From positions 12,544 to 76,543 of the forward strand of contig CAZKUA010000004.1 of NCBI GenBank assembly GCA_964555845.1: a DNA stretch of 64,000 nt, written 5' to 3'. Position numbers and translations under genes: made by a program. Below, piece by piece: positions 8,162-43,610 of this stretch. Numbering within the stretch: the first letter of the stretch is position 1; every line of letters begins with the position of its first letter. Source of the DNA: an uncultured Candidatus Peribacteria bacterium. Lineage in GTDB: Bacteria > Patescibacteriota > Gracilibacteria > BD1-5 > UBA2023. A model generated the notes under the pieces. It ran no database searches. It worked only from the letters and a program-made list of their open reading frames with translations, and was not told the DNA's origin.

Positions 8162-11100
8162 ATGAAAATTATTAAAAAATTTTTTGTTTATATTATTGTT
8201 ATTTCACTTGTATTTAATCAGTCTTTTTATAACATAGTTAATGCCTCAGCATCGCTTAGTATTCAGCTTTTTTTGCTTAATTGAGTTTCTAGTAATTTAT
8301 CTGTTAATCCCGGAGATTCTTTTAAAATTTCTCTTGAATGAATTAATGATGGAACAGATACATTAACGAGTGTTTATTGAAATGTATATTTTTCTGATAA
8401 TAATAGTTTCACTTATAATACGAATTTATTTACTCTAATAAATTTTGCAACTATTACAAATCCTATTCCAGGGACTGATTATACGGCTTGAAATTGACTT
8501 TATACCCAGATTACTGGCTGATCGACAACGACATTAATCGCCTGAAAAAAACCAAAGATTTCATGAACAGCATTAAATAATTTCACTGCTAATTCTAATA
8601 TTTCTACTTATTCAAATACCATTTATTGAAAATTTAGCGGACTAGATCCGGCTCTAAATCCAATAAATTCTACTATAAGTCAACTTACAATTTATGCGAA
8701 TGTAAGACCTCATATCACAGATTATTATTTTGAGAAAGCTGATGGATCAGAGGTTACAAATCAAATACAATGAGCCAATGCAGAAGCTATAAACTTGGTA
8801 TTAAAAGTAAAAGATTATAATGGTTGTGCTAATATTGATGGGTGAGCCGTTGTAGCTAATTTAAGCCAGATTTGATTAAGTTCTTCTGAAAGTCTTACAT
8901 ATAATAGTTGTGATGGGGACGGTAAGACTGCTATATTTAAAAGAACTTGAATTACAACTACAGCATCACTTAGTACTTATAATTTTAATTATTCTCACTT
9001 TACTGCTACTGATGAAGATGGTAATGTAAATACTCCAACTGATGCTAATACAACTTTTGATGATGAAGATAAAAAAACTGATTTTCCACTTACTGTGATA
9101 TCAGCCGGAGCACCGGGCGTTAGTAATTTATGAATTACAGATGATTATATAGGATGACCAGCTGAGACTTCTACTACTTTTAGTTTCTCTGGAAGTCAGG
9201 ATGGGGAATACAAGGTGGCATTATGAAGCGATTGAACTTGTAATTGATGAACTACTTTACTTGATTGGACAGCGACATGAACTTATGTTGCCTGAGACTC
9301 TGCTAGTTTTGTAATTAATTCAGCAAGTCTTAGTGATTGAAATAATAATATCTATGCTTGTTTTAGAAATGTAACAAGTGAGATATGATCTACAACTCAA
9401 ACTATTATTAAGGATACTACTAATCCCACCATAAGCTCTCTCCAAGTGAGTCCCGCGAGTGTAGTTACAAATGATAGTAATGTAAGTTTTATTTGTAGTG
9501 AAGCAGGTTATTATAAGACAAGTATTGGATGAAATATAATTACGAATTATACCATAACTACTGCTGGGGCTACTAATTCATCAGTAATTCCAAATGCTAA
9601 TTTATTTGAATGAGATAATATCATTACAGTTTATTGTAAAGATGACGCCTCAAATGAGCTAACTACAACAACAAATGTAGTCAAATCTACTGCTCCACCA
9701 AGCCTAAATTGAGCTGTAACTTCCTTTTCTGATACTGATATTGATTATGATTGACTTAACTGATCAGATTTAAATTTTACTTGGGATAACACAAATGCTG
9801 TATCTTATAATTATTTTGAATCATATAGACTCTATCTTCTTCCATCTAATATTACACTAAATACTAGCTCTCATACTTATATTAAGATATTGTCCGATAA
9901 AAATCTAGCAACTTGGACTTGAGATTCTACCATTACAAAAGACTCTACAAATACAGACTTAGTTAACTGAGCAAGCTATCAAATGTGTATTGCAATTATG
10001 TGAACAAACTGACAATTATGAGAAGCTGGATGTAGCGATGCCTCAGCATTAATTACAGATGTAGTACAACATCCAAATGTACTTAGTGCCAGATTTAATT
10101 CTTCAACCAATTTAGAACTTACTACAGATGCAACTCTTGATACAGATATAGCTACTCATAGCGGAGAATTAGTATCTTTTATAGTGTGATCTACTACATA
10201 TACCGGAACTGCCATAGCTTCAGTTGATTCACAAAAAATTAATATTACAATCCCAGATTTATGAAATCTCTGAGCCACTTGAACAGGATTATTACTGTTT
10301 ACTTGAGCTATTCATTCTTTTTCTTGAGGATTTAATAATTATTTTAGCTCAGGAAGTCTTATAATTACTGACTGACAAGCTCCTACAATTGCTGGATTTG
10401 TAAATAATACGGCATCTCCTTATGGCTCTTTTTTCTCTTGATCTATAAATGTATGATTTACTTTCGCTGAAGCCATGAGAGCCTCTGGATATACCAAAAT
10501 TACTTTTGATAGAACTGCCTGAAATGCCTCAGCTCAAAAAATTTATGAAATAACCGATTCTTCTAAGCTAACTCCTGGAGTTCATAGTGTAGACATTAAT
10601 TTGGTATCTCTATGATTAGTCTCAGGTACTACTTATGATATGAAAATTACAGGACAAGATTTGGCTGGTAATTCTGTCACTTCTGGAGCTATTACTGTTA
10701 AATTTGATAATGTTTGACCGGTTATAATGAGTCTTAGCCCTATTTGAATTTCTTGAATTACTGATCCATTTTTTAATTGGCTTGCGACTACTGATGATGG
10801 CGGGAATTGATCTGGAGTTGGAGGTTATACTCTAAAAATATTTTCTGGATCTACTTGTACAACTCTATTATCTCAAACTGGAATTACAGACCCAATAACA
10901 CTGCAATATCAAGTACTTCTAGCTGATATGAGAGATTATGCTTGGAATATAGTCGCTTATGATAATATGTCTAATTTATGAACTACTTCGGCTTGTGATA
11001 GTTTTTCAGTAAATACTTCTATTCCAGTAATATCTAGTTTATCTATAAAAAATAATTGAGGAACCCCTATAACTTATACAAAAACAGCTGATACTATCAA

Positions 11101-14100
11101 AATCACAGCAAATGTAGTTAATTCAAATACTGATAATATTTCTATTAATCTTTCTTCTCTGACAGGAAATTGATCTCACACAAATGTAGTATGTAGTGCA
11201 CCTGGAGCTGGAATATCTTGTACTTATGTAGGGTGAGTAGTGACTTATACTTTTGCTGTATGATTTGCCGGAGCAGTAACTAATTGATTAAAATGGACAA
11301 CTCTTACTACAAATAATACAGATGGAATAAATACTCAAAATTCAAGTATTTCAGTTACTGTAGATAATACTGCCCCAGCTATAGTTGGAACTCCTATTAC
11401 TGCTCCAATAAGTTCATCAGTTTGGTGATGAACTACTCAGACTATAGTCCGGACTGCCGGGTCTATAACTGATAATTATTCTATTGCATACATGAAATTA
11501 GAATATAGTAATGATAACTGATGAAGCTGGAATGATATAGCTACAGGATCTAATCTAGGTTCTTATAACTGGGATATATCAGCTCTAGCTAGTGATACTG
11601 ATTATAAAATAAAATTAACAGCTTTTGATAGGGTAGATAATAATACTTCTACAATTTCCGATGCTTTTACTATAGATAAGGTTGCTCCTGCAGTTGCTGC
11701 TGATACAATTACTACTCCAAATGGGTCAAATATCTATAAATGATGACAAGCTCTTAATATTGCCTGGGATCAGACAAAAATAACTGACAATATAGCGCTA
11801 GCATCGAGTCCTATAAAACTCGAATATACCCTAGATAATTGAACCGCTTGGACTCAAATAGCAACAGGTGAAGCAAATGACGGGACTTACGCTTGGACAG
11901 TACCTTCGGTGAATTCTTCACAAGTCAAAATAAGACTTACAGCCACAGATAATGCTACAAATATAAATTTAGATACTTCTGATACTACTTTTATAATAGA
12001 TTCTACACTTCCAACTGTAGCTCTTACTTTTGCTGGAGCTGGATGATCTACTCCACAAAATGGAAAATATATCAATAATAGCTGATTAGATATAACTGCG
12101 ACAACTTCTGATTCCTATCTAGATAGAGTAATGTATAAATTAGAAAATATTACAGATACTCAATATTGGCAACAATCTACAACTGGATGGCTTGGAATAG
12201 AAAATTGGAATGATTTATGTATAGAACCTCAAGCTCTCTGAAATGGTTGAACTTGTGCAAATATAGCCGAAATTGCAACACTCGCAGGTATACTGGGTAA
12301 CAAAGATTATAGACTTACTATTAAGGCAATTGATGAAGCCTGAAATGAAAAAACCTATAATCCAGTCGATTATATTGGGGATGTTGTGAGTCCAAATTTA
12401 TCTATAACTACAGCAAATAATTATTATTTTAGTGGAAGTATAAATATAGCAGGTACTGCAAGTGATGCTCTGTCTGGACTTAGCTCGACTAATATTGAGA
12501 TAAAAAAATGAGCCTTATGGTGGAATGGGTCTGACTGGGTAGTTCCTCAGACGGTATTAGTTACTTCTGGGACAGCTGGGAATTGGAATTATAATTTTAC
12601 ATCGCCTGGAGCTGATGCGGACGCTACCAATTATAATGTAATAATCACGACTCATGATAGTGCATTTAAAACTAACAATAATACAAGTTCAAATATTAAT
12701 ATAATAAAAGATTCATCAGGACCAATTATTGATAATAGTGTATTTACCTTTGATACATCAGGAATTAGAAAATGATGAACTGCAATGACTATAACATGGA
12801 ATCCGGCGCTTATTACAACCATCTGAGCTTCACTAAATGCTAATTCTATAAAACTTGATTATAATTTTACAGGGTCTATAATTCCAATAGCTTCTTGAGA
12901 AGCTAATGATGGAAGTTATAATTTTACACTTCCAGCAGGAGTAGATAGTCTAACTGCAAAATTTATAATTACAGCATATGATAATTTATGAAATATTTCA
13001 AATGTTGTAGCGTCGTCTGATTTTATAATTGATAGTCTGCCTCCTACTGTTAGTACTGTTGAGACCCAGGATTTTAATACAGATGGTCAGATTGATTGAT
13101 TTATAGTTACCTTTTCTGAGAAAATAAATAATTGATCTGTAAATGTGGCAGAATTCAGTGTGTCAGATTGAATCACTCTTAATAATTGAAGTCATAGTAT
13201 ATATGATGCTGGAAATTATACAAAGCTTGAGCTGTATTTTAATGCACAATATTGAGACACTTCATCAATTCCTACGCTTAGTTATAATTGAGTGGCTATT
13301 GAGGATATTGCTTCAAATAAACTCGCTAATTTTACTAATAAGGCATCTGTAGATAAGGCTTCTCCTAGAATAACAAATGCTGAGATATATGATACTAATT
13401 CAAATGGAAAAGTAGACCAAATTAAAGTATATTTTACAGAAAATATAACCTCCACTACTGACATATGAAGTTTTACTTTAAATAATGTCTTGCCAGGAGC
13501 TTCTATATCAGGAGCTAGTGTGTCTGGAAATGTATGAACTCTGTCATTAGTAGAATCTTCAAATTATAATACTTCACCAGATGGAATGACCATTACCTTC
13601 TCTAATAATGGAGCATGGAAAGATATAAGTCCTGCCCTAAATGTCGCTGGAAATAGAGCAAATATAGCCCTAATAGATAAAGCTTCTCCTGTGAAAATAT
13701 CTGCTATAACTACTGATTCTAATTCAAACTCTAAAATTGATAGACTCGATATTACATTTTCTGAAGATATTGTCTGAAATATTGACTGAGATATTACTGT
13801 TTGAAATCTGGCAGCCGGATCATCTAAATGAGCCTCATCAGTTGTCTCTAATGTACTTAGAATTGCAATAAATGAAACAAGTGATAATAATGATACGGCT
13901 CAAATTCCAACTTTTGCATATAATTGAGCTAATTTAAAAGATAGCTCTAATAATCTAGTAGCAAATATTGCGAGCTTTAGTTTGAGTGATTGAGTAAAAC
14001 CAAAACTATTATTAAGAGAGACGGTCGATTCTAATTGAAATGGAAAATTAGATAAAATTAAAATAACTTTCTCTGAAACCCTAAATAATAATGTATGAGC

Positions 14101-15769
14101 AATAGTAATAAATGTAGCATGATATGTAGTGAGTTCTTATTCATCAAGCGCTAATTTATTATATGCTAATCTAGATGAACTAGATATTTCCGATACCTGA
14201 GCTACACCAAATGTTCAAATAACTTCAAACACTACACTTTGAGATACAACAAATAATTTAGTGTTTACAGAGTGAGCGGCAACTGCATCCACAGATAAAG
14301 TATGACCTGTTGTAATTTGAGCTAGATATTCAGCAAATACTGTTTATGTGGATTTATCAGAGAATTATGGAGGAGTACTTGATAATAATTCATTTGTACT
14401 GAGTGGCTCTGCTCTGCCAAGTATTACAAATACGGTATGAGCTGGAAGTCAAGTAACTATAACTCTTAGCTGACCAATTAGTGCTAACACAGAAATCTCA
14501 GCTGCAGCAAATACTGTAGAGGATGGAGCTTGAAATAAACAAGCCTCAACATATTTTATGGTAATTTCAAGCTCACTAATTATCAATGAAGTAATGTATT
14601 CTACAGGTAATACTCAATATATAGAACTTAAAAATCTATGAGCTAATCCTGTAGATCTAACAAATTGGGTAATAGAAAATGGGGGAGGGAATTGAGTAAA
14701 TATTACTGTAACAGCTTGAAATATACCGGCCTGATGATTATTTTTAATTACAAAAACTGGAATAACAGAACTTAATTGAGTTGTGACTGATTTTAATGCT
14801 GGACTTTCACTCGATTTAACTACTCAAAATGATTTAATATTAAAAGATAACTCTTGAAATATATGGGATAGTGTCCAATCTAGTCCGTGGCCAGCTGGAA
14901 GTGGAAGTCTTTGAGTTGCTATGGAGAGAATAAGTTCTCCAGGAAATTGATTAAATTCTTCTTCTTGGTATTCTGCAACTACAAATAATTGACTTACAGC
15001 TTGATTTCTTGGGACTCCAAAAAATCCTAATGTATTTGATTCTACTATTCCGACTATAAATAGTTTCTCGCCTGCAGATAATACTCTATATCCTGTTGGA
15101 TGACTAAATGTAGTATATAACTATTCTGATAATGTAGCCGTGGATGATAGCTCGTATACATTTGCATTAGAAAAATGGAATGGAGTTAACGCTTGGAATG
15201 ATGCTTCCGCTGGAATAGCTAATTCTTCAGTTAGCGTAACTTCTGCCACATTTACTTTGGCTAATCTGACTTTTTGAAAATACAAAGCTTCCTTTACGAT
15301 TGATGATACCAGTGGAAATACAGTTTCAAAAGATATAATTTTTTATGTTGATAAATTCGAATTTACTATTTCAAATTCAAGTATTAATTTATGAGTTATG
15401 GAAGTTGACAGCTTAGTGAGTGCTACGCAAAATGCGACTATTACAATAAAAACGCTCGGAGCTGGATTTGATTTGAATATCGGATGAGATACTACGCTGG
15501 ATGCTTGAATTAATTCAATTCAAAGTTGGAATACTCTGTATTGATTTTGAATTGATTATGAAGCGACTAATTCTGCAACACCTAAAGTATTTTGAACTAC
15601 CGATGCTATCCCAAAAGTACTAGAAAGTAATCCTACTTGAAGTATTGATTGAAACTGAAACCAGAAAACATTCACATATAATGTAAAATATCAATGAAAA
15701 ATACCTTTCATACAAGTGGCTGGAAATTACAGTGCAAATACAAGTTATACTGTGGATATTAATTATTAG
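8162..15769 (+). CDS. giant secreted surface protein (2535 aa) with Ig-like repeats, four Ca-binding-like modules and a lamin-tail (LTD) domain
   Basis: ATG at 8162 and TAG at 15767 are in the same frame. I translated the whole frame by eye and spot-checked many lines for TAA/TAG. The track ORF 13586-13777 lies in this frame. Signal peptide MKIIKKFFVYIIVISLVFNQSFYNIVNA. LTD signature LIINEVMYSTGNTQYIELKNLGANPVDLTNWVI at about 14566-14760. Composition is rich in Thr, Ser, Asn and Gly. Confidence 0.8.
13036..14090 (+). repeat. four tandem ~105-aa intragenic modules inside the giant ORF
   Basis: Recurring cores: LPPTVSTVETQDFNTDGQIDGFIVTFSEKI, ASPRITNAEIYDTNSNGKVDQIKVYFTENI, ASPVKISAITTDSNSNSKIDRLDITFSEDI and VKPKLLLRETVDSNGNGKLDKIKITFSETL. 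They recur at a period of about 320 nt. Confidence 0.7.
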
Positions 15770-29016: not shown

Positions 29017-29091
29017 AGCCCTATAGTTCATCGGTTAGAATTCAGGATTCCAAATCCTGCGAGGTCGGTTCGATTCCAACTGGGGCTGCCA
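29017..29091 (+). tRNA. tRNA-Trp (anticodon CCA)
   Basis: I folded a cloverleaf by hand. Acceptor AGCCCTA/TGGGGCT (one G-U pair). D stem GTTC/GAAT. Anticodon stem CAGGA/TCCTG with loop TTCCAAA. T arm with TTCGATT loop (one mismatch in the stem). 3' CCA is encoded. Confidence 0.85.
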
Positions 29092-35352: not shown

Positions 35353-35457
35353 TTATTTTTCTAATTCTTTTAAAACTTCCTCTTTTGCTTTTATAATATC
35401 TGCAGATGTAACATTTTCTAATTGTTTAAGAAAATATTTAGTTTTTATTATATTCAT
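35353..35457 (-). CDS. possible truncated RelE-like toxin remnant (34 aa)
   Basis: MNIIKTKYFLKQLENV.. resembles the N-terminus of the 108-aa protein at 41049 (MYNFIITKSFLDNQNE..). It overlaps the upstream small gene. It is very short. Confidence 0.25.
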   Translation of the reverse strand: MNIIKTKYFLKQLENVTSADIIKAKEEVLKELEK

Positions 35458-35648
35458 ATAGCAGATTTTAATCTACTATTCAATATTTTGTCATATGGAT
35501 TATTTTCTAATTCTTTTTTGGTCTTACTATCCTGATATAATTCTGATAAATAGTCATTTATAAAATAAGAAGTAATTTTTTCTAATTGCTCATTTTGAGT
35601 AACAATACTCTTATATTTATTTGGTATCTGTAAAGTTAAAGTAGTCAT
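35448..35648 (-). CDS. small antitoxin-like protein (66 aa)
   Basis: MTTLTLQIPNKYKSIV... shares its N-terminal pattern with the proteins at 40846 (MTTVKLEIPNSINKSI) and 20241. Read-through of one TGA moves the stop to TAA at 35450-35448. Confidence 0.45.
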
Positions 35649-36222: not shown

Positions 36223-37026
36223 ATGAACAATAAACCAACTCAAGTATCTCCACAAAATGACCAGTTTAGCACTAATAATGAAGTATTATCAGTTAAAGAC
36301 ATTAAAAAAGAATTTTTAACTATTATTGATGATTTTATTGAAGCATTAGAGAAAAGCTTGCTAAAAGTAGATTTTGATAATGTTGATATTGCTACTGCTT
36401 TATTGCAAGGGAATATTCCTATAATAAATGGTTTAACTTTAAATGAAATAGATTCCATTTTTCATCAGAAATTCTCTACAATTTTTGAAATAAAACCTTT
36501 TATTTTAAATGAAATAAATACATTTGTATCTGAATATAGCGAATTTTTCAAGTGATGAGATTTATTTAGAAAAATTTTTCATAAAAACTGAAGTTTTGAC
36601 TATATATGATGAAATCATAAAGAAGAAACAAGAAGGTTAATAGAAGTTATTTCTCATAAGTTTTGATTGGAAAAAAGTAATTTTGTTAGTCGACATCATT
36701 CTAATATTTTTAACACAGCAAAATCACATATAAAAAAGAAACTAGACAAATTAGCTAAAATTGATCTAAATATTCCTGGTTATATAGTTTTACTAATTTT
36801 TAGAAATATCTTAAATGAGCAAGAAAATGTCAAAGATTTTCTATCTTATGCTTCTATAATCCAAAATTCTTTTACTGTAAAAGATACTGCATTTTGAGAT
36901 AAAATTAATGAATTTTTTCTAAAATATTCTACTGTGGAATCTACTGTTGATAGGGTAAGTGAATCTGTATCAGATATAACAAAAGCTGGAGAATATCCAA
37001 TACAGGCTGATGAGATTCCATATTAA
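36223..37026 (+). CDS. hypothetical protein (267 aa), first gene of the MutS-like operon
   Basis: Track ORFs 36223-36555 and 36667-36897 are in one frame and join through TGA codons. The frame was checked. TAA at 37024. No recognised domain. Confidence 0.65.
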
Positions 37027-37050
37027 ATTTAATTAACCCCTACATAAACT

Positions 37051-40000
37051 ATGCATAAATTAAGATTAGGAGATTTAAAGAATTTCCAAGTATATGATAG
37101 AAAAACTGGATTGTTTAATTCTCAAGATTTAGTAGCCAAGATTATTGATTGAGAAACTATGGAAATTTTTACTCAACCAAAAAATCCAGCAGAAATTATT
37201 TCATTGTCTAAAAATAAGACTTCTCTTGATTATAAGGAAAGAAATAGTTTTAGATGTAATGAAAGAGAAGATGCTATAATAAGTAGTATTTTAAAAAATC
37301 CTTCTAAGGATTTATCTGAGATAGTTGCTCGTCAGAGAGTTTTCGATGAACTATTGTCAAGCAGAGTTGATTTAGAAAAATTAATAAAATTAAAAAGAGA
37401 AAGTGAGAGATTTTGAGAGACTTTAAAATATCTATGGTGATATGATAGAGATGAAAAGGAGCAAGCAGAAGAAGAAAGAAGGAAACCCAGAAAAAGAATA
37501 GATATTTTAAAGGAAGAAAACAAAAAATTTAGGGTAGAAAATTTTATTAAAATAGAAGAAAATTTAAGTAAATGAAAAATAGATGAAAAAACTTTTGATA
37601 AATTTATTGGTCGCGGAGATGGAATGCTTCATTTAATTAGTCTTAAAGATGAGTTTAATGACATTAATAAATTAATAGTCTATCTTAAAAAAGTAGCAAA
37701 TCCAGTTATTCAAGACTTAGCGATAAAATTAGAAACTGAATACAGACAAATAAATTTCTTGAGTGTTTCTTATTTTGTATGACTATATCTTGACTGAAAA
37801 GAAAAAGAAATAAAGAAATTTTTCACTCAAGCAGATAATCTTTTTAAGATATTAAATCAAGTATGAGCGCTATTATCCATAGCTTATAAAATAAAAGAAG
37901 ACGAATATAGCAAGGTAAGTTTTGACGAAACTAAACCAATGCAATTTAAACAAGCTTGGCAATTTGAAAGAACTAAAAAATGAAGAGATCGGTGAGATAA
38001 AGTTCCACCACAAAAATTAAATGATTCTATGGATAGCACATCTTGTAATGTGCTAGTTTGAGATATAATGTCAGGAAAAAGTTTTCAATGAGAACTTAAT
38101 AAACAATTACATATTTGTGCTCAATCAATTTGATACGCCCCTGCAAAAGAAGTTAATGTTCACATTTTTGATAGATTTGTATCGATAGACAGAGCCTTGA
38201 CTGATTCATGAAAATGACTGAGTGCTTTCGGGGAAGATATTACAAATATAAATAAATTATTAGAATTAAACAGTATATGATGAACTACATTTTTATTTAT
38301 GGACGAGTGGTGATCGACAACTTCTCCAGAAGATCAGGCGATTTTGCTTAAATCAATATTAATTTATATGACAAATAAAGGTATTAAAGTAGTTCTTGCG
38401 ACTCATAATGAAGAATTTGTAAAATATGTTAATGATAATATTAATTTTAGTGTTTATCATCTTGAAGATAAATTAAATGATGACGGAACTATAACTTTTT
38501 TGTATGAATTAAAAAAATGAATTTGAGAACATCATATTCTAGAAGCTGCAAAAACTCTCTGATTACCAGAAAGTATCCATCACACAGCACAGCAATATCT
38601 AGAATGAAATATCCTAGAGGCAAATATCCCAGAAATTAATTTTAGAGATGTTGTAAAATATACTCCTGAAGAAAGAGAAAAATTAAAACAAGAGCTAAGA
38701 AGTTTTATGTCTTTAATGCCTTATAGAGATGAAATAAAAATTATATATAAGGAAAAGGCAACAAATTATAATCGTCCTTATGAAATTACAAAATTTCCTG
38801 TTCTAAAATGGAAATATTCCATGGATAATGAAGATAGGGAAGAAAAATCAAGAAGTAATTGGGGTTGAGGAAGAGAATACACTTGATATCAACCAGAAGA
38901 AAAACCAGAATATAATAAGATATTGTCTGTAATAAGCGATGATGATGATTTTAAACGGACTCATTTTAAATGATTGAAATTAGAGCGCTATGATGATATT
39001 TGAAAATTTATAACTCAATCTCCCATAAGAAGTTCTCAAGATATTTTTGAAATTCAAAAAATGCTTGAAGAAATAGATAGATTATGAGTTGAAAAATTAG
39101 CAGAAGAAAGAATTAAATTACACAATTTTTTATGGCATTTAAACAGGTCTTTATATACAATTAGAGATTACTGAGAAAATTTTAATAACCATTTGTTTGA
39201 GGATACTTATAAGGAATTTAAGGGAGATAGTTTATCTTGAAGAAATTTTTTATATTCATTTAGATTGTTTGTTTTATCAATAAAAATAAGTCTAGAATTA
39301 TCATGACTTAAAATTGAAGATGATAGTTATTTTAAAGAACAATTAGCTAAATTTGATTTATTAATTCAATTCAAACAAAAAATAAAAGAATGGAAAAAGA
39401 GGAGAGAACAAGAAAAAAAGGATTGAGTATATGAAAAACTAAATGAAGAAGAATTTGAAATAAAACAAAATGAAAATGGTAAAGAATATAATAAGATAAT
39501 TGATGATTGTGCTAAACTTGCTTGATTTGATACATCAAAAAAAGATTGGTTTGAAATTAGTCAAATAATAACTTTTTGATGTAAACAAATTTGAAAAGAA
39601 TTTTATGAGCATTACAAAGATAAATTTAAATCTTATAATTTATTTGATATAGATTTGCAAATAGTTAAGAAATTAATGAATGAAGAAAAAGAAGCTTTAA
39701 CTAAACTTGATTGGATGTGAAATAGTGGCATTAGTTTTATATGTTGACTTTATGCGATAGTATGACAAGAAGTTGATATTTATTCAACCACAAATGAATT
39801 AAAAAAATATGACTCAGTTCATTTTCATCAAATATCTAATTTTTGGGAAAATATTTTAAAAGAAGTTTTATGAGATATAAAAACATGAGATGATATTTTT
39901 CAAATTCTCAAAGAAAGTTATAATTCGAATAAGGATGAACTAGAAAGAAGAGAAAAAATAAAATCATTTCCAAATTTTGAAAAATTATTAATAGATATGA

Positions 40001-40749
40001 TAAATTTATTAGCCATTTTTGATCTATCTAAAATGATTAAAGATAATGATTTTTGCAAAGTTAATTTTAATCAAACTGGTTCTATTGTTTTAGATGAACC
40101 TTATAATCCAAATAAAAAGCCGGAAGAACAAGTTAAAAATAAATTTTATTTCTGAGAAGATCAAAGAGTTGTAATAAAAACCGGAGCCAATATGTCCGGA
40201 AAAACTCAAAGTCTTAAACATACAATATGGCCACTCGCTTTTGCAAATGCTATCGGTTATGCTCCAGCAAAATCTATGAATACTCCATTAATTGATAAAA
40301 TTTATTGGGTAGATCGCATAAAAGCTCGCCAAGATTTAAATTTAAGTTCCGGATGAACAGAAGTTATAGTTTTAAAACAAATTTTTGAAGAAATATCAAA
40401 ATCAAAATGAATGAATATTGGATTTTTTGATGAAATGTGGTCAACTGTTCCTCCAAGATTTCAGACAGCTCTCACTTATGCAACTATTAGGGAATTTATG
40501 CAAAAATGAGTTTATATTGATATTTCTCATCATAATCACGATTTTATAAATAAATTAATGCAGAATCATCCAGAAATAACTGAATCAGTTCATTTTAAGA
40601 CAAATATAATGGATGACTGAACTGTTTCATTTGATTATAAACAAGAAAGATGACATACAAAATCTCAAGCCTTACTTGTTGCAAAAACCTGTTGATTAAT
40701 ACAAGAAATTTTGGATATAGCAGATATGATTTCAAAAGAAGCTATTTAG
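37051..40749 (+). CDS. 1232-aa protein with two MutS domain-V-type ABC ATPase modules (MutS-related, no mismatch-binding or Smr domain recognised)
   Basis: The frame was checked for every line: ATG at 37051, TAG at 40747. Module 1: GDIMSGKSF (38059-38085), FLFMDEWGSTTSPEDQ (38290-) and LATHNEEF. Module 2: GANMSGKTQ (40183-40209), GFFDEMWSTVPPRFQ (40420-) and ISHHNHDF. Both modules share the ..IGYAPAK.. segment typical of MutS ATPases. Confidence 0.8.
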
Positions 40750-40757
40750 GAAAAAAA

Positions 40758-40786
40758 ATAAAACCCGTCCGGGTTTTATTTTTTTT
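40758..40786 (+). terminator. rho-independent terminator of the MutS-like operon
   Basis: AAAACCCG-TC-CGGGTTTT followed by a long T-run. Confidence 0.8.
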
Positions 40787-40845: not shown

Positions 40846-41046
40846 ATGACAACAGTAAAACTTGAGATACCTAATAGCATAAATAAATCTATTTGATTAA
40901 GTGATACTCAAAATATTATCAATATTGTTGATTTATTTGAGAAATTATGAATTGATTTGAGATTTTTATTAAAAGAAAGGGCTTACCAGAAAAAATTTTT
41001 AAAGGATTTAAAAGAAAATAATTTTACTGAATCAAATAATTTTTAG
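40846..41046 (+). CDS. small antitoxin-like protein (66 aa)
   Basis: MTTVKLEIPNSINKSIGLSDTQNII... Its stop lies 2 nt before the start of the toxin-like gene. Confidence 0.5.
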
Positions 41047-41048
41047 TT

Positions 41049-41375
41049 ATGTATAATTTTATAATTACAAAAAGTTTTTTAGATAATCAAAATGAATATA
41101 TCTCAAAACTAACAGAAAAAGAATATCAAAAATTTATTAATACAAAAGCTAAATTTCAAAAAAATATTTTCGATAAATCTATTAATACTCACGATATTTA
41201 TCAGGCAAATTCCATAAAAGTTTATTCTTCTTATATAAATGAAAAAGATAGAATAATATTTTTTTATAAGAAGCCAGAGAAAATATTTTTATACAAGATA
41301 ATGACGGATCATAACTATAAAAAGCTTCTTTCAAATATAGATTTTGCACTTAAAGATTTTTTAAATAATTTCTAA
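41049..41375 (+). CDS. RelE/ParE-superfamily-like toxin (108 aa)
   Basis: An intact ORF in the track. ..SIKVYSSYINEKDRIIFFYKKPEKIFLYKIMTDHNY fits the RelE-like beta-sheet core pattern (xRixY...i.l..i..dH.Y). Confidence 0.5.
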   Translation: MYNFIITKSFLDNQNEYISKLTEKEYQKFINTKAKFQKNIFDKSINTHDIYQANSIKVYSSYINEKDRIIFFYKKPEKIFLYKIMTDHNYKKLLSNIDFALKDFLNNF

Positions 41376-41420: not shown

Positions 41421-43610
41421 ATGTTAAACACAGAGCAAGAAAAAGCAGTTAAGCAAACGGAGGGGCCACTTTTAATTTTGGCTTGAGCCTGAGTAGGGAA
41501 GACTCATACTTTAACTGAAAGGGTTTCTTATATGATTAAGGAAAAATGAATAAATCCTGAGAGTATTTTGTGTGTGACTTTTACGAATAAGGCGGCTCGC
41601 GAGATGAAGGAGAGAATTTGAAATTTATTGGGTGTGGATGGGGCGAGCGTAAATATTTATAGAAGTCGTAATTTTCCATTAATTGGTACTTTTCATTCGG
41701 TTTGAGTGTATTTTTTGAGGCTTTTTATTGATAGAATAGGTTATGATAAAAATTTCACAATTTGAGACGAAGATGATAAAGTGAAATTAATTAAAGAAAT
41801 TCTGGATGAGAAAAATATTGATTCAAAGGAATTTCAGGCTCGCAAAATTGCAGGAGCAATTAGCTCTGCCAAAAATGCTTGAGCGAATTCTCAAACATTT
41901 CAGGTTTCTTCTTATTACACTCAGGTTGTCAGAGATATTTTTGAAGAATATGAGAAAAAATTAAAGCAATATAATATTTTAGATTTCGATGATATCCTCA
42001 CTAATACTTACAAAATTCTACAAAACAAGGAAGTTTTAGATTATTTTCAAAATAGATTTTCGTATTTTCTCGTGGATGAGTATCAGGACACAAATGAAGT
42101 TCAATACAATATTATCAAACTTCTTGCTAGTAAATCTAGGAATTTGTGCGTTGTCTGAGATGATTGGCAGTGAATTTATTCTTGGCGTGGAGCAACAATT
42201 AAAAACATTTTACATTTCTGAAAAGATTACAAGGATTTAGTTACAGTGAAGCTTGAACAGAATTACAGATCTACAAAAAATATTATACATTGTGCGAATT
42301 GTGTAATAAAAAATAATTCTGGAATTATCGATAAAACGCTTTGGACAGACAATGAGGCCTGAGATAAAATTAATTTAATCGAAGCATTTAATGAAAAAAA
42401 TGAGGTGGAAATGGTAGCTTCAATTATTGATGAGAATATTGATAACTATAAAAATTTCGGGATTTTATACAGGACAAATGGGCAGTCTCGTCTAATTGAG
42501 GAGGCCCTGCTTTCAAAGTGAATTCCTTATAGAGTTTTCGGTTGATTGAAATTTTATGAAAGAAAGGAAATTAAAGATATTTTGGCTTATTTAAGACTTA
42601 TTGCTAATCCTGCTGATTTACTCAGTCTTAAGAGAATTATAAATATACCCTGAAGAAAAATTTGACCAAAATCAGTTGAAACTCTCGTTAATTATGCTAG
42701 AAATTATGGAGTGAGTCCACTTGAGATTATGGATAATGTGGAGGAAATTGGAGAATTATCTTCTTGAGCTAAAAAATCTATTTCTTGGTTTAAGGAAATG
42801 TACGATGACTTTGTGAAATTTTTACCAGAAAATAGTATAGAACTACTAATGAAGCACATTATAAAAACAATTTGATATGAGGATTATTTACGCGATGATT
42901 ATGACTGAGAAGAGCTCGAATGAAAACTTGATAATCTAAAAGAATTTGAGAATATGGCTTCGAGATTTACAGGATTAGAGAGTCAAGAAGCACTTAATAT
43001 GTTTTTAGAAGAAATCTCACTAATTACAGATTCATCAGATGAATGAAAAGAAAATATTAAAGTAAATCTTATGACAGTTCATCTCTCAAAATGACTTGAA
43101 TTTGATGTTGTATTTATAATCTGAGCCGAAGATGGGATTTTCCCACACTCAAGAACTTTTTCTGAGCCAAAAGAACTCGAAGAAGAAAGAAGATTAATGT
43201 ATGTAGCGATGACCAGAGCCAAAAAAGTTCTCTATATTTCAAAAGCCAGAGAAAGATATATGTTCTGAAATTATTCAGCCAATCCAGCCTCAAGATTTAT
43301 CAGAGAAATTCCAACTGAATTTCTAGAAAAGATAGCTTCATCATTTTCTTGAGACAAAAGAGATTATTTCAAAAATTCTTTCTCTCCACAATTTCTAACT
43401 AGCTCTGATAGTCTAGATTTAAAACCAAAAGTAAGAACAATAATTCACAACAATATTTCAAATTTCTCACTCTGAGACAAAATAAATCACGTGAAATTCT
43501 GAACCGGTACAATTATTTCCATGAACTGAAGTTTCGCCGACATAGCATTTTGATCTTGAGTTTGAATCAAAAAATTTAATTTAGAAATAGCACCAGTGGA
43601 GAAATTGTAG
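41421..43610 (+). CDS. pcrA: UvrD/PcrA-family ATP-dependent DNA helicase (729 aa)
   Basis: The frame was checked line by line. Walker A is LAGAGVGKTHTL, with both Gly encoded by TGA at 41484 and 41490. Also present: [27 protein letters not shown] (G is TGA), QNYRST and VHLSKGLEFD. Confidence 0.92.

What the first reader, a model, noticed from the sequence alone, without database searches (positions are those of the whole stretch)
36223..40749. Operon of a 267-aa unknown protein and a 1232-aa protein carrying two MutS-type ATPase domains
CDS 37051-40749 contains two copies of the MutS domain V ABC-ATPase core, separated by about 650 aa of helical, Lys/Glu-rich sequence. Module 1 (GDIMSGKSF, MDEWGSTTS, LATHNEEF) looks partly degenerate. 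Module 2 (GANMSGKTQ, FDEMWSTVP, ISHHNHDF) has a canonical P-loop. I could not recognise a mismatch-recognition domain (I), connector, clamp or Smr/endonuclease domain. It is translationally coupled in layout (24-nt gap) to an upstream 267-aa gene of unknown function and ends at a strong terminator. Canonical MutS works as a dimer of two ATPase domains, and here the pair appears fused in one chain. Together with the TA-like modules on both sides, this looks more like an NTPase-based defence or genome-surveillance module than mismatch repair.
Basis: partly seen in the sequence, partly recalled or inferred. Interest (0 to 1): 0.8.

Follow-up and report, generated by a model that had tools for sequence, protein, structure and literature searches.

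The report
Single-chain double MutS ATPase protein
A 1232-residue protein of a Gracilibacteria-type bacterium contains two complete MutS lever-plus-ATPase units in one chain, and it belongs to an unnamed family found mostly in uncultivated bacteria; it looks like a housekeeping nucleic-acid clamp, not a defence system.

Summary
With TGA read as glycine (code 25), 36223-37026 encodes a 267-aa protein (A). After a 24-nt gap, 37051-40749 encodes a 1232-aa protein (B), followed by a terminator. B has two MutS domain V ATPases, and each passes Pfam's threshold alone. Module 1 is the better match, not the degenerate one. Each ATPase follows a MutS-type helical core/lever, so B is a tandem duplication of the whole unit. 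It has no mismatch-binding, connector or Smr domain. Walker A, Walker B, signature Ser and switch His are invariant in both modules across 11 aligned family sequences.

An exhaustive profile search finds about 177 family clusters at E ≤ 1e-30. The named ones come from CPR groups, Omnitrophota and Margulisbacteria, and all are "hypothetical protein". Both modules form one clade (99/100 bootstraps).

No neighbour is conserved across about 20 loci. Gene A accompanies B only in one Gracilibacteria subclade, sometimes with another gene between them. There are no PADLOC hits and no viral relatives, and the flanking toxin-antitoxin-like cassettes are strain-specific insertions.

Best reading: a single-chain pseudo-heterodimeric MutS clamp ATPase of unknown substrate, probably DNA. 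The intramolecular pairing is inferred, not shown. It is a new variant of a known kind.

The parts
36223..37026 (+). Gene A: 267-aa all-alpha protein of unknown fold with 7 TGA(Gly) codons, specific to one lineage
   Evidence: ORF under code 25. No Pfam, NCBIfam or PADLOC family. Only 6 homologues at 49-73% identity. AF2 model of homologue P0034 is all-helical, pLDDT 64.8. No PDB fold match, best E 0.59.
37006..37023 (+). C-terminal tip of A, 'ADEIPY' (acidic residues, then I/V-P-aromatic)
   Evidence: [AG]DE[IV]PY is conserved in 5 of 7 family members. The A-like 603-aa protein in L004 ends GDEIPF. A is the only window ORF with this kind of C-terminus. The closest homologue in L001 lacks it, with no hidden frame encoding it.
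37027..37050 (+). 24-nt A-B intergenic spacer
   Evidence: Read directly. Nearly identical in L001. No terminator-like site lies between A and B.
37051..40749 (+). Gene B: 1232-aa tandem MutS (core/lever + ATPase) x2 protein with 45 TGA(Gly) codons
37273..38049 (+). Unit 1 core/lever (aa 75-333), MutS domain III-like, all-helical
   Evidence: In the family profile, positions 45-494 align to human MSH2 residues 328-846, i.e. domains III-V. The NPS..I..RQ motif aligns to the MutS domain III start. Relative P0054 gives a MutS_III hit at 32.1 bits, just under the 34.1 cutoff. Helical in the AF2 model.
38050..38601 (+). ATPase module 1 (aa 334-517): Walker A G337-S344 (K343), signature S391, Walker B D418-E419, switch H452
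   Evidence: Pfam MutS_V 62.0 bits on its own. These residues are invariant in all 11 aligned sequences.
38602..38982 (+). Inter-unit linker (aa 518-644) with family-conserved motifs (YTPEERE.LK, PVLKW.YS, EEKPEY, S.D.DF), partly beta-hairpin
   Evidence: Consensus and invariant columns. Secondary structure from the model. No Pfam match.
38983..40173 (+). Unit 2 core/lever (aa 645-1041), a longer and more diverged copy of unit 1's lever
   Evidence: hhalign aa 75-126 vs 649-698: prob 89%, E 2e-6. aa ~195-335 vs ~900-1040: E 1.3e-8. Whole halves: E 5.4e-48.
40174..40737 (+). ATPase module 2 (aa 1042-1229): Walker A G1045-T1052 (K1051), signature S1099, Walker B D1127-E1128, switch H1161
   Evidence: Pfam MutS_V 37.5 bits on its own. 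Residues invariant in the family. BLASTP against module 1: 25% identity, E 1e-18.
40751..40786 (+). Intrinsic-terminator-like hairpin plus T-run directly after B's stop codon
   Evidence: 16-pair stem; 3 such sites found against 0.8 expected in shuffles.
41421..43610 (+). UvrD/PcrA helicase gene, a syntenic downstream neighbour in this Gracilibacteria subclade (context, not shown to be a functional partner)
   Evidence: Pfam UvrD-helicase 1e-88, UvrD_C, PcrA_UvrD_tudor. It follows B in L001 and L011 as well.

Best explanation
Gene B encodes a single-chain, internally duplicated member of the MutS family of ABC-type ATPases. Each half is a MutS core/lever (domain III-like) followed by a domain V ATPase. 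There is no mismatch-recognition domain I, connector domain II or Smr nuclease. This is the layout of MutS2, MSH4/MSH5 and the MutS3/MutS4 paralogue pairs, but here it occurs twice in one polypeptide. Shown: the homology, the duplication, conservation of all catalytic motifs in both modules, the existence of a distinct family, and the lack of a conserved partner gene. Inferred: all characterised MutS proteins work as dimers whose two ATPase domains pair head-to-head, with the signature motif of one completing the ATP site of the other. By analogy, the two modules of B most likely pair within the chain to form two non-equivalent composite ATP sites, like MSH2-MSH6 or the tandem ABC proteins UvrA and ABCE1. 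ATP binding and hydrolysis would then open and close the two helical lever arms around a bulky nucleic-acid substrate. I favour DNA (branched or duplex DNA in recombination or repair), acting as a stand-alone housekeeping factor in CPR, Omnitrophota and Margulisbacteria lineages. In some members a separately encoded small nuclease may assist. Gene A is a lineage-specific all-alpha protein that is probably co-transcribed with B in this strain. Any functional link between A and B is unproven. A's acidic DE[IV]P[YF] C-terminus resembles the SSB C-terminal docking tip and may recruit a genome-maintenance partner; this is speculative.
For: Two MutS_V modules, each above the Pfam gathering score. 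PDB sequence hits are only MutS, MutS2, MSH2, MSH3 and MSH6, with MSH2 domains III-V aligned to unit 1. AF2 model of the 89%-identical P0001 has pLDDT 82 and pTM 0.69. All listed Foldseek PDB hits (top 50) are MutS-family entries, with 327-683 aligned columns. The halves are homologous over lever plus ATPase. Walker A Lys, Walker B Asp-Glu, signature Ser and switch His are invariant in both modules in 11 sequences down to 23% identity. The family has 177 representatives at E<=1e-30, mostly 1150-1600 aa and matching the full profile. Modules 1 and 2 are monophyletic in 99/100 bootstraps against the sampled MutS1 proteins and short MutS paralogues. Two-gene precedent: MutS4A/B are adjacent genes with overlapping stop and start codons (PMC2190696). 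MutS proteins act as dimers or tetramers, and loss of domains I/II widens the DNA site for junctions and D-loops (PMC12292046). DNA-side context: UvrD follows B in the window, L001 and L011; RecG in L004; DnaE in L016; MutL and TopA near L005. Small nucleases sit immediately upstream in two 69%-identical members: a PLD with intact HKD in L010 and a GIY-YIG in L101. Housekeeping setting, no PADLOC hits, no viral relatives.
Against: No beta-rich clamp (domain IV) is seen, as both arms are all-helical, so DNA binding is not established. No neighbour is conserved across about 20 distinct loci, and the recurring pairs (EF-P x2, GIY-YIG x2, recombinase x2) are within chance expectation. Translation-related neighbours (EF-P, EF-G, YicC, NYN) and the best single-sequence PDB hit being ribosome-bound MutS2 fit an RNA or ribosome role equally well. 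MutS-type ATPases can also serve non-nucleic-acid roles: KamC is the best NCBIfam hit, at 99 bits against a cutoff of 300.
Confidence: 0.55

Rival explanations
1. B is a ribosome-associated factor working like MutS2/RqcU: a MutS-type clamp ATPase that recognises and splits stalled or collided ribosomes, not DNA.
For: The best single-sequence PDB hits are B. subtilis MutS2 in ribosome complexes (7qv3, 8qpp). Like MutS2, B lacks domains I and II. EF-P lies directly downstream of B in two very divergent members (L097 and L101, B only 28% identical), and EF-G in L005. RNase-type neighbours: YicC in L095 and NYN in L007.
Against: [quoted passage not shown] The neighbour recurrences are within chance expectation for about 22 loci. 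DNA-repair neighbours (UvrD, RecG, DnaE, MutL) are at least as frequent. In the tree the family's modules form their own clade; no labelled MutS2 references were available to place against.
Confidence: 0.2
2. A and B, with the flanking TA-like cassettes, form an NTPase-based anti-phage defence or genome-surveillance module.
For: TA-like cassettes lie on both sides in the window. One member (L010) sits next to Phage_rep_O, a serine recombinase and a PLD nuclease. L107 has a recombinase two genes away. L174 has an ORF6N neighbour. TA genes also lie near L001, L002 and L009.
Against: Neither protein has a PADLOC hit. There are no relatives on 2.9 million viral contigs. The TA-like cassettes are absent from the syntenic L001 locus. 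The genes syntenic with L001 are housekeeping. A is not conserved with B outside one subclade, and no partner gene is conserved anywhere.
Confidence: 0.08
3. B is a protein-remodelling or reactivase-type ATPase, like KamC, that uses the MutS ATPase scaffold on a protein client and not on nucleic acid.
For: The best NCBIfam match is KamC, the lysine 5,6-aminomutase reactivase ATPase (E 2.6e-28, 99 bits). No clamp domain IV is recognisable.
Against: The score is far below the KamC cutoff of 300 and covers only the lever end plus half of domain V. No aminomutase or B12-enzyme genes appear in any of about 20 neighbourhoods.
Confidence: 0.05

Closest known systems
MutS2 (bacterial; anti-recombination factor and ribosome-rescue factor RqcU)
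   Same: Lacks domains I and II. Has a core/lever plus domain V ATPase. Among the best PDB matches by sequence and profile.
   Different: MutS2 is a homodimer of single-ATPase chains and carries C-terminal KOW and Smr domains. B has two units in one chain and no KOW or Smr.
MutS3A/B and MutS4A/B paralogue pairs (Lin, Nei & Ma 2007, PMC2190696)
   Same: Contain only the MutSd (core) and MutSac (ATPase) regions. They occur as A/B pairs, and MutS4A/B are adjacent with overlapping stop and start codons, implying a heterodimer of two diverged units. B is the fused equivalent in concept.
   Different: Those are two separate genes. B's two modules are each other's closest relatives (99/100 bootstrap) and do not group with the short MutS paralogues sampled from GTDB genomes. 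So B arose by its own duplication, not by fusing such a pair.
Eukaryotic MSH heterodimers, especially MSH4-MSH5
   Same: An asymmetric pair of diverged MutS units with two non-equivalent ATP sites. MSH4/MSH5 also lack domain I (own knowledge). MSH2 domains III-V align to unit 1.
   Different: They are two polypeptides, eukaryotic, and have recognisable clamp domains. B is one chain with all-helical arms.
Tandem ABC ATPases in one chain (UvrA, ABCE1/Rli1, ABC-F)
   Same: Two ABC-type nucleotide-binding domains in one polypeptide that pair within the chain (own knowledge; UvrA's two sites per monomer: PMC6486640 abstract).
   Different: These are different ABC clades with no MutS lever/core. The resemblance is in architecture only.
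SSB C-terminal tip (DDDIPF), for gene A only
   Same: The extreme C-terminus is acidic residues followed by I/V-P-aromatic. The DDDIPF tail of SSB is described in PMC4137731 and PMC5531588.
   Different: A is all-alpha with no OB fold. The tip has fewer acidic residues, and it is absent in 2 of 7 family members.

Membership tests
MutS superfamily (domain V ABC-type ATPase) | Match to Pfam MutS_V (PF00488) above the gathering score | tested here: met
   Module 1 at 62.0 bits and module 2 at 37.5 bits, each scanned alone, against a cutoff of 30.2.
MutS superfamily (domain V ABC-type ATPase) | Walker A, Walker B (DE), signature Ser and switch His present | tested here: met
   K343/S344, S391, D418/E419, H452 in module 1 and K1051, S1099, D1127/E1128, H1161 in module 2. 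All are invariant in the 11 aligned sequences.
MutS superfamily (domain V ABC-type ATPase) | Core/lever (domain III) preceding the ATPase | tested here: met
   The family profile aligns MSH2 328-846 to positions 45-494. P0054 gives a sub-threshold MutS_III hit at 32.1 against 34.1 bits. Foldseek alignments run 327-683 columns. The window protein alone gives no Pfam MutS_III hit.
MutS1 (mismatch-repair MutS) | N-terminal mismatch-recognition domain I (PF01624) and connector domain II (PF05188) | tested here: not met
   No hit even at E<=10 on the N-terminal 331 aa or on the spacer. NCBIfam mutS1 scores 84.5 bits against a cutoff of 641.7.
MutS2 | C-terminal Smr (and KOW) domains after the ATPase | tested here: not met
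   B ends 3 residues after module 2. No Smr or KOW hit. NCBIfam mutS2 scores 77.3 bits against a cutoff of 400.
MutS3 / MutS4 paralogue pairs | Only the MutSd and MutSac regions, encoded as separate A and B genes | tested here: not met
   The domain content per half matches, but the two units are fused in one ORF. A real two-gene example is L039, with 566-aa and 539-aa genes.
MutS3 / MutS4 paralogue pairs | Phylogenetic grouping with MutS3/4 reference sequences | tested here: inconclusive
   The family's modules form their own clade (99/100) apart from the 430-690-aa MutS paralogues found in GTDB loci. Those outgroups are not labelled MutS3/4 references.
Intramolecular (pseudo-dimeric) tandem ABC ATPase | The two ATPase modules of one chain contact head-to-head to form composite sites | not testable with these tools
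   The AF2 model has pTM 0.69, but coordinates are not exposed.
Known anti-phage defence systems (PADLOC-DB 2.0) | Match of either protein to a defence-system model | tested here: not met
   0 families for A and for B at E<=1.
Conserved A-B operon | Gene A adjacent to gene B across related genomes | tested here: not met
   Directly adjacent only in the window and L001, and in L004 as a 603-aa A-like protein. Separated by a 589-685-aa gene in L011 and L012. Absent in L002, L003 and all standard-code loci.
SSB-like C-terminal docking tip (gene A) | Acidic residues followed by I/V/L-P-F/Y at the extreme C-terminus | tested here: met
   ADEIPY in the window, GDEVPY in four homologues, GDEIPF in L004. 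Absent in P0034 and P0039. Binding function not tested.

The most novel reading that the evidence does not exclude
The family is a previously undescribed MutS subfamily in which the obligate MutS dimer has been hard-wired into one polypeptide with two permanently non-equivalent ATP sites. It would serve as the main junction- or duplex-sensing clamp (or a ribosome-splitting clamp) in the reduced genomes of CPR, Omnitrophota and Margulisbacteria, working with interchangeable small nucleases encoded in trans (GIY-YIG, PLD). In one Gracilibacteria clade it would also work with an adaptor (gene A) that carries an SSB-like docking tail.
Probability: 0.3. Interest if true: 0.7.

Novelty: new variant of a known kind. 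Interest (0 to 1): 0.55.

Why it matters
MutS proteins are the textbook case of an ABC-type ATPase dimer whose two sites behave asymmetrically. In homodimers that asymmetry is hard to dissect, and in eukaryotes it is fixed by heterodimerisation. A natural single-chain version with two diverged but catalytically intact sites would allow site-specific mutagenesis and single-molecule work without subunit mixing. The family is also a large, entirely unannotated gene (about 1200 aa) kept in some very small genomes, where retaining it suggests an important function. Knowing whether it acts on DNA or on ribosomes would fill a gap in how these uncultivated lineages maintain their genomes or their translation. 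On the practical side, the case shows that code-25 genomes are often mistranslated in databases (W for G), and that word-index homology searches underestimated this family by more than tenfold.

Tried and rejected
I used the 89%-identical database protein P0001, trimmed to 1200 aa, instead.
- The first deep profile job failed because the profile exceeded 1200 positions. I rebuilt it with trimmed N-termini.
- I looked for model coordinates to measure the contact between the two modules. None are exposed.
- The Clostridium loci L039 and L068 looked like further fused members because the match spans 3.8 kb. They are two separate short MutS genes with a 248-aa gene between them.
- The giant relatives (2996-3392 aa) were scanned for extra domains as Rosetta-stone hints. 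Only MutS_V x2 was found.
- Fold search of the gene A family model gave nothing below E 0.59.
- Promoter scan: matches are no more frequent than in shuffled sequence, so it is uninformative in this 25% GC DNA.
- Five literature searches and two papers read for this point found no description of a tandem or fused MutS. Ogata et al. 2011, which lists further prokaryotic MutS subfamilies, is not in the library.
- I considered reading the EF-P and GIY-YIG recurrences as functional links and rejected that, because pairs like these are expected by chance with about 22 loci and 4 neighbour slots each.
- Ordinary MutS1 and MutS2 were rejected on missing defining domains.
Full report
**1. Genetic code and gene models**

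Under table 11 the region breaks into ORFs of 110 aa or less. Treating TGA as sense gives 44 ORFs of at least 100 aa across the window, against 3 under table 11. TGA reads as glycine. The first Gly of the module-1 P-loop (aa 337) is a TGA codon, and standard-code relatives have G at that position (GDMMSGKS, GSNMSGKS, GANMGGKS). With table 25, gene A is 36223-37026 (267 aa, 7 TGA codons) and gene B is 37051-40749 (1232 aa, 45 TGA codons), with 24 nt between them. A hairpin with a T-run lies at 40751-40786, directly after B. No terminator-like site lies between A and B. Promoter-like matches are at the level of shuffled sequence.

**2. What B is**

Pfam finds MutS_V twice. Scanned separately, aa 334-517 score 62.0 bits and aa 1042-1229 score 37.5 bits, against a gathering score of 30.2. 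The N-terminal 331 aa and the 522-aa spacer fragment match nothing even at E ≤ 10. NCBIfam gives only far-sub-threshold matches to KamC, MutS1 and MutS2. PADLOC gives none. Sequence hits in the PDB are exclusively MutS, MutS2, MSH2, MSH3 and MSH6.

The two halves are homologous to each other:
- BLASTP of aa 250-509 against 966-1220 gives 25% identity, E 1e-18.
- Profile-profile comparison of the halves gives E 5.4e-48 over 309 columns, starting about 140 residues before each P-loop.
- The start of each lever also aligns: aa 75-126 against 649-698, probability 89%, E 2e-6.

That start carries the motif NPSKDLSEIVARQRVFDELL in unit 1 and SPIRSSQDIFEIQKMLEEI in unit 2. In the family profile this motif aligns to the conserved beginning of MutS domain III, and MSH2 residues 328-846 (domains III-V) align to profile positions 45-494. 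A relative, P0054, gives a MutS_III hit of 32.1 bits, just under the 34.1 cutoff.

An AlphaFold2 model of the 89%-identical P0001 (residues 35-1234) has mean pLDDT 82.2 and pTM 0.69. Both arms are all-helical, and there is a beta-hairpin segment in the linker. All listed Foldseek PDB hits (top 50) are MutS-family entries, with 327-683 aligned columns.

So B is (MutS core/lever + ATPase) × 2, joined by a conserved linker of about 127 residues. It has no domain I, domain II or Smr, and no recognisable beta-rich clamp.

**3. Are both ATPase sites intact?**

I aligned B with ten relatives down to 23% identity. The following residues are invariant:
- Module 1: Walker A Lys/Ser K343/S344, signature S391, Walker B D418/E419, switch H452.
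- Module 2: Walker A K1051, signature S1099, Walker B D1127/E1128, switch H1161.

Module 1 is closer to canonical MutS, and module 2 is the more diverged copy.

**4. The family**

The word-index search found only ten two-module relatives before dropping to ordinary MutS1 at E around 1e-9. The exhaustive profile search found 177 representatives (clusters at 50% identity) at E ≤ 1e-30. Most are 1150-1600 aa and match the full 1150-position profile. A few are giants of 2996-5808 aa. Every member that carries a name is called "hypothetical protein". Those come from Gracilibacteria, Peribacteraceae, Omnitrophota and Margulisbacteria. GTDB genomes add Levybacteria and Roizmanbacteria. There are no relatives on viral contigs. 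The two giants scanned (2996 and 3392 aa) show no additional Pfam domain.

In a domain V tree, the modules of 24 family members form one clade in 99 of 100 bootstraps. The outgroups were MutS1 proteins and the short MutS paralogues (430-690 aa) found in GTDB loci. All module 2 sequences but two form a nested clade. The duplication therefore happened once, at the base of this family. It was not a fusion of two pre-existing subfamilies.

**5. Neighbourhoods**

I clustered the flanking genes of about 20 distinct loci. No family recurs across the whole B family. Gene A (cluster C1) occurs only in a Gracilibacteria subclade:
- Directly upstream of B in the window and L001.
- As the N-terminal part of a 603-aa protein directly upstream in L004.
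- Separated from B by a gene of 685 aa (L011) or 589 aa (L012).

Gene A is absent from L002 and L003, whose B proteins are 52% and 48% identical to the window's, and from all standard-code members.

By synteny with L001, the window's surroundings are housekeeping: ValRS, an M23 peptidase, an HTH protein, DUF5652, A, B, UvrD/PcrA, a cold-shock protein, TyrRS and RecQ.

Neighbours elsewhere include MutL, TopA and EF-G (L005), RecG (L004), DnaE (L016), EF-P (L097, L101), YicC (L095) and NYN (L007). L007 also has a second 1546-aa MutS_V paralogue in tandem. Two members whose B proteins are 69% identical each have a different small nuclease immediately upstream on the same strand. L010 has a PLD with an intact HxKx4D/GSxN motif, and L101 has a 90-aa GIY-YIG. 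With about 22 loci and four neighbour slots each, a few recurring pairs are expected by chance, so none of these is decisive on its own.

**6. The defence reading**

The TA-like cassettes are real as small two-gene layouts. Downstream there is a 66-aa plus a 108-aa ORF at 40846-41375. Upstream there is a paralogous 66-aa ORF at 35448-35648 on the minus strand. They match no family. They are absent from the syntenic L001 locus, where UvrD follows B after 103 nt. They are therefore strain-specific insertions. Together with the PADLOC and viral results and the housekeeping synteny, nothing positive supports a defence module.

**7. Gene A**

A has no family match and only six homologues, at 49-73% identity. 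The model is all-helical with moderate confidence (pLDDT 64.8) and has no fold match.

Its C-terminus [AG]DE[IV]PY is conserved in 5 of 7 members, and the L004 fusion ends GDEIPF. It is the only such C-terminus in the window. It resembles the SSB tip DDDIPF (plus my own knowledge), but the closest homologue lacks it. I treat this as a lead, not a finding.

**8. Mechanism and comparison**

MutS proteins act as dimers whose ATPase domains pair. Loss of domains I and II widens the DNA channel so that junctions and D-loops fit (PMC12292046). MutS3 and MutS4 occur as A/B pairs, and MutS4A/B are overlapping adjacent genes (PMC2190696).

The most economical reading is that B is a hard-wired pseudo-heterodimer with two non-equivalent composite ATP sites that drive two helical arms around a nucleic-acid substrate. 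The pairing and the substrate are inferred, not shown. A ribosome-directed role like that of MutS2 is the main rival. However, B lacks the KOW and SMR domains that recruit MutS2 to collided ribosomes (PMC10897456 abstract).

**9. Novelty**

The literature searches and the two papers read for this point found no description of a tandem or fused MutS. Ogata et al. 2011 could not be read. I rate this a new variant of a known kind. It is a distinct, sizeable, unannotated MutS subfamily with a fused architecture. It is moderately surprising, because heterodimeric MutS pairs and tandem ABC ATPases are both known themes.

Noticed in passing
window 1-64000; tRNA at 29017-29091: The whole window uses TGA as a sense codon read as Gly (code 25). 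Only one tRNA gene, tRNA-Trp(CCA), is present. GC content is about 25-30%.
   Followed up: partly
window 40846-41046 and 41049-41375 (+); 35448-35648 (-): TA-like small-gene cassettes flank the A-B pair. The two 66-aa proteins are paralogues (both start MTT[VL].L.IPN). The 108-aa partner has a RelE/ParE-like look but no Pfam hit. On reading the sequence, a remnant of about 34 aa seems to follow the upstream copy. Both cassettes are absent from the syntenic locus L001.
   Followed up: partly
P0002, P0003, P0004 (database proteins); L004, L013: Several public predictions of this family from code-25 genomes were translated with TGA = Trp. They carry W at conserved Gly positions, for example LVWDIMSGKSF. 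This distorts alignments and profiles.
   Followed up: no
L007 2353-6993 and 7001-11290: Two paralogous two-module MutS giants (1546 and 1429 aa, 41% identical over 784 aa) are encoded back-to-back with an 8-nt gap, followed by an NYN-domain gene.
   Followed up: partly
L095 3706-12696 (P0041); P0040, P0042, P0074: Some family members are giant proteins of 2996-5808 aa, including one from Omnitrophota. In the two scanned (P0040, P0041) the two-module core sits inside long extensions with no Pfam match.
   Followed up: partly
L010 6546-6986; L101 3945-4217; L098 5072-5347: Small stand-alone nuclease genes lie next to the MutS-like gene: a PLD with an intact HKD motif in L010, and GIY-YIG genes in L101 and L098. 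The B proteins of L010 and L101 are 69% identical, yet different nucleases occupy the same upstream position.
   Followed up: partly
L097 10151-10705; L101 8607-9161; L005 10694-12772: EF-P lies directly downstream of the MutS-like gene in two very divergent members, and EF-G does in a third. This may be chance, but it is relevant to a MutS2-like ribosome role.
   Followed up: partly
L039 5065-9899; L068: Clostridium genomes carry two short MutS-like genes without domain I (566 and 539 aa) separated by a 248-aa gene. This is an unfused paralogue pair of the MutS3/MutS4 type.
   Followed up: no
L011 7752-9809; L012 1543-3312: An unknown gene of 589-685 aa ('X', no Pfam hit on record) sits between the A and B homologues in two relatives and is missing from the window and L001.
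   Followed up: no
window 8162-15769 (+): A 2535-aa ORF, the largest in the window. Not examined.
   Followed up: no
window 37027-37050; L001 6977-7000: The 24-nt A-B intergenic spacer is almost identical between the window and L001 (TAAATTTAATTAACCCC.ACAT.AA.C.ATG), although protein A is only 71-73% identical between them.
   Followed up: no
method:: The word-index homologue search found 10 family members. The exhaustive HMM search found 177 cluster representatives at E<=1e-30. Rarity estimates from the first tool alone would have been misleading.
   Followed up: yes
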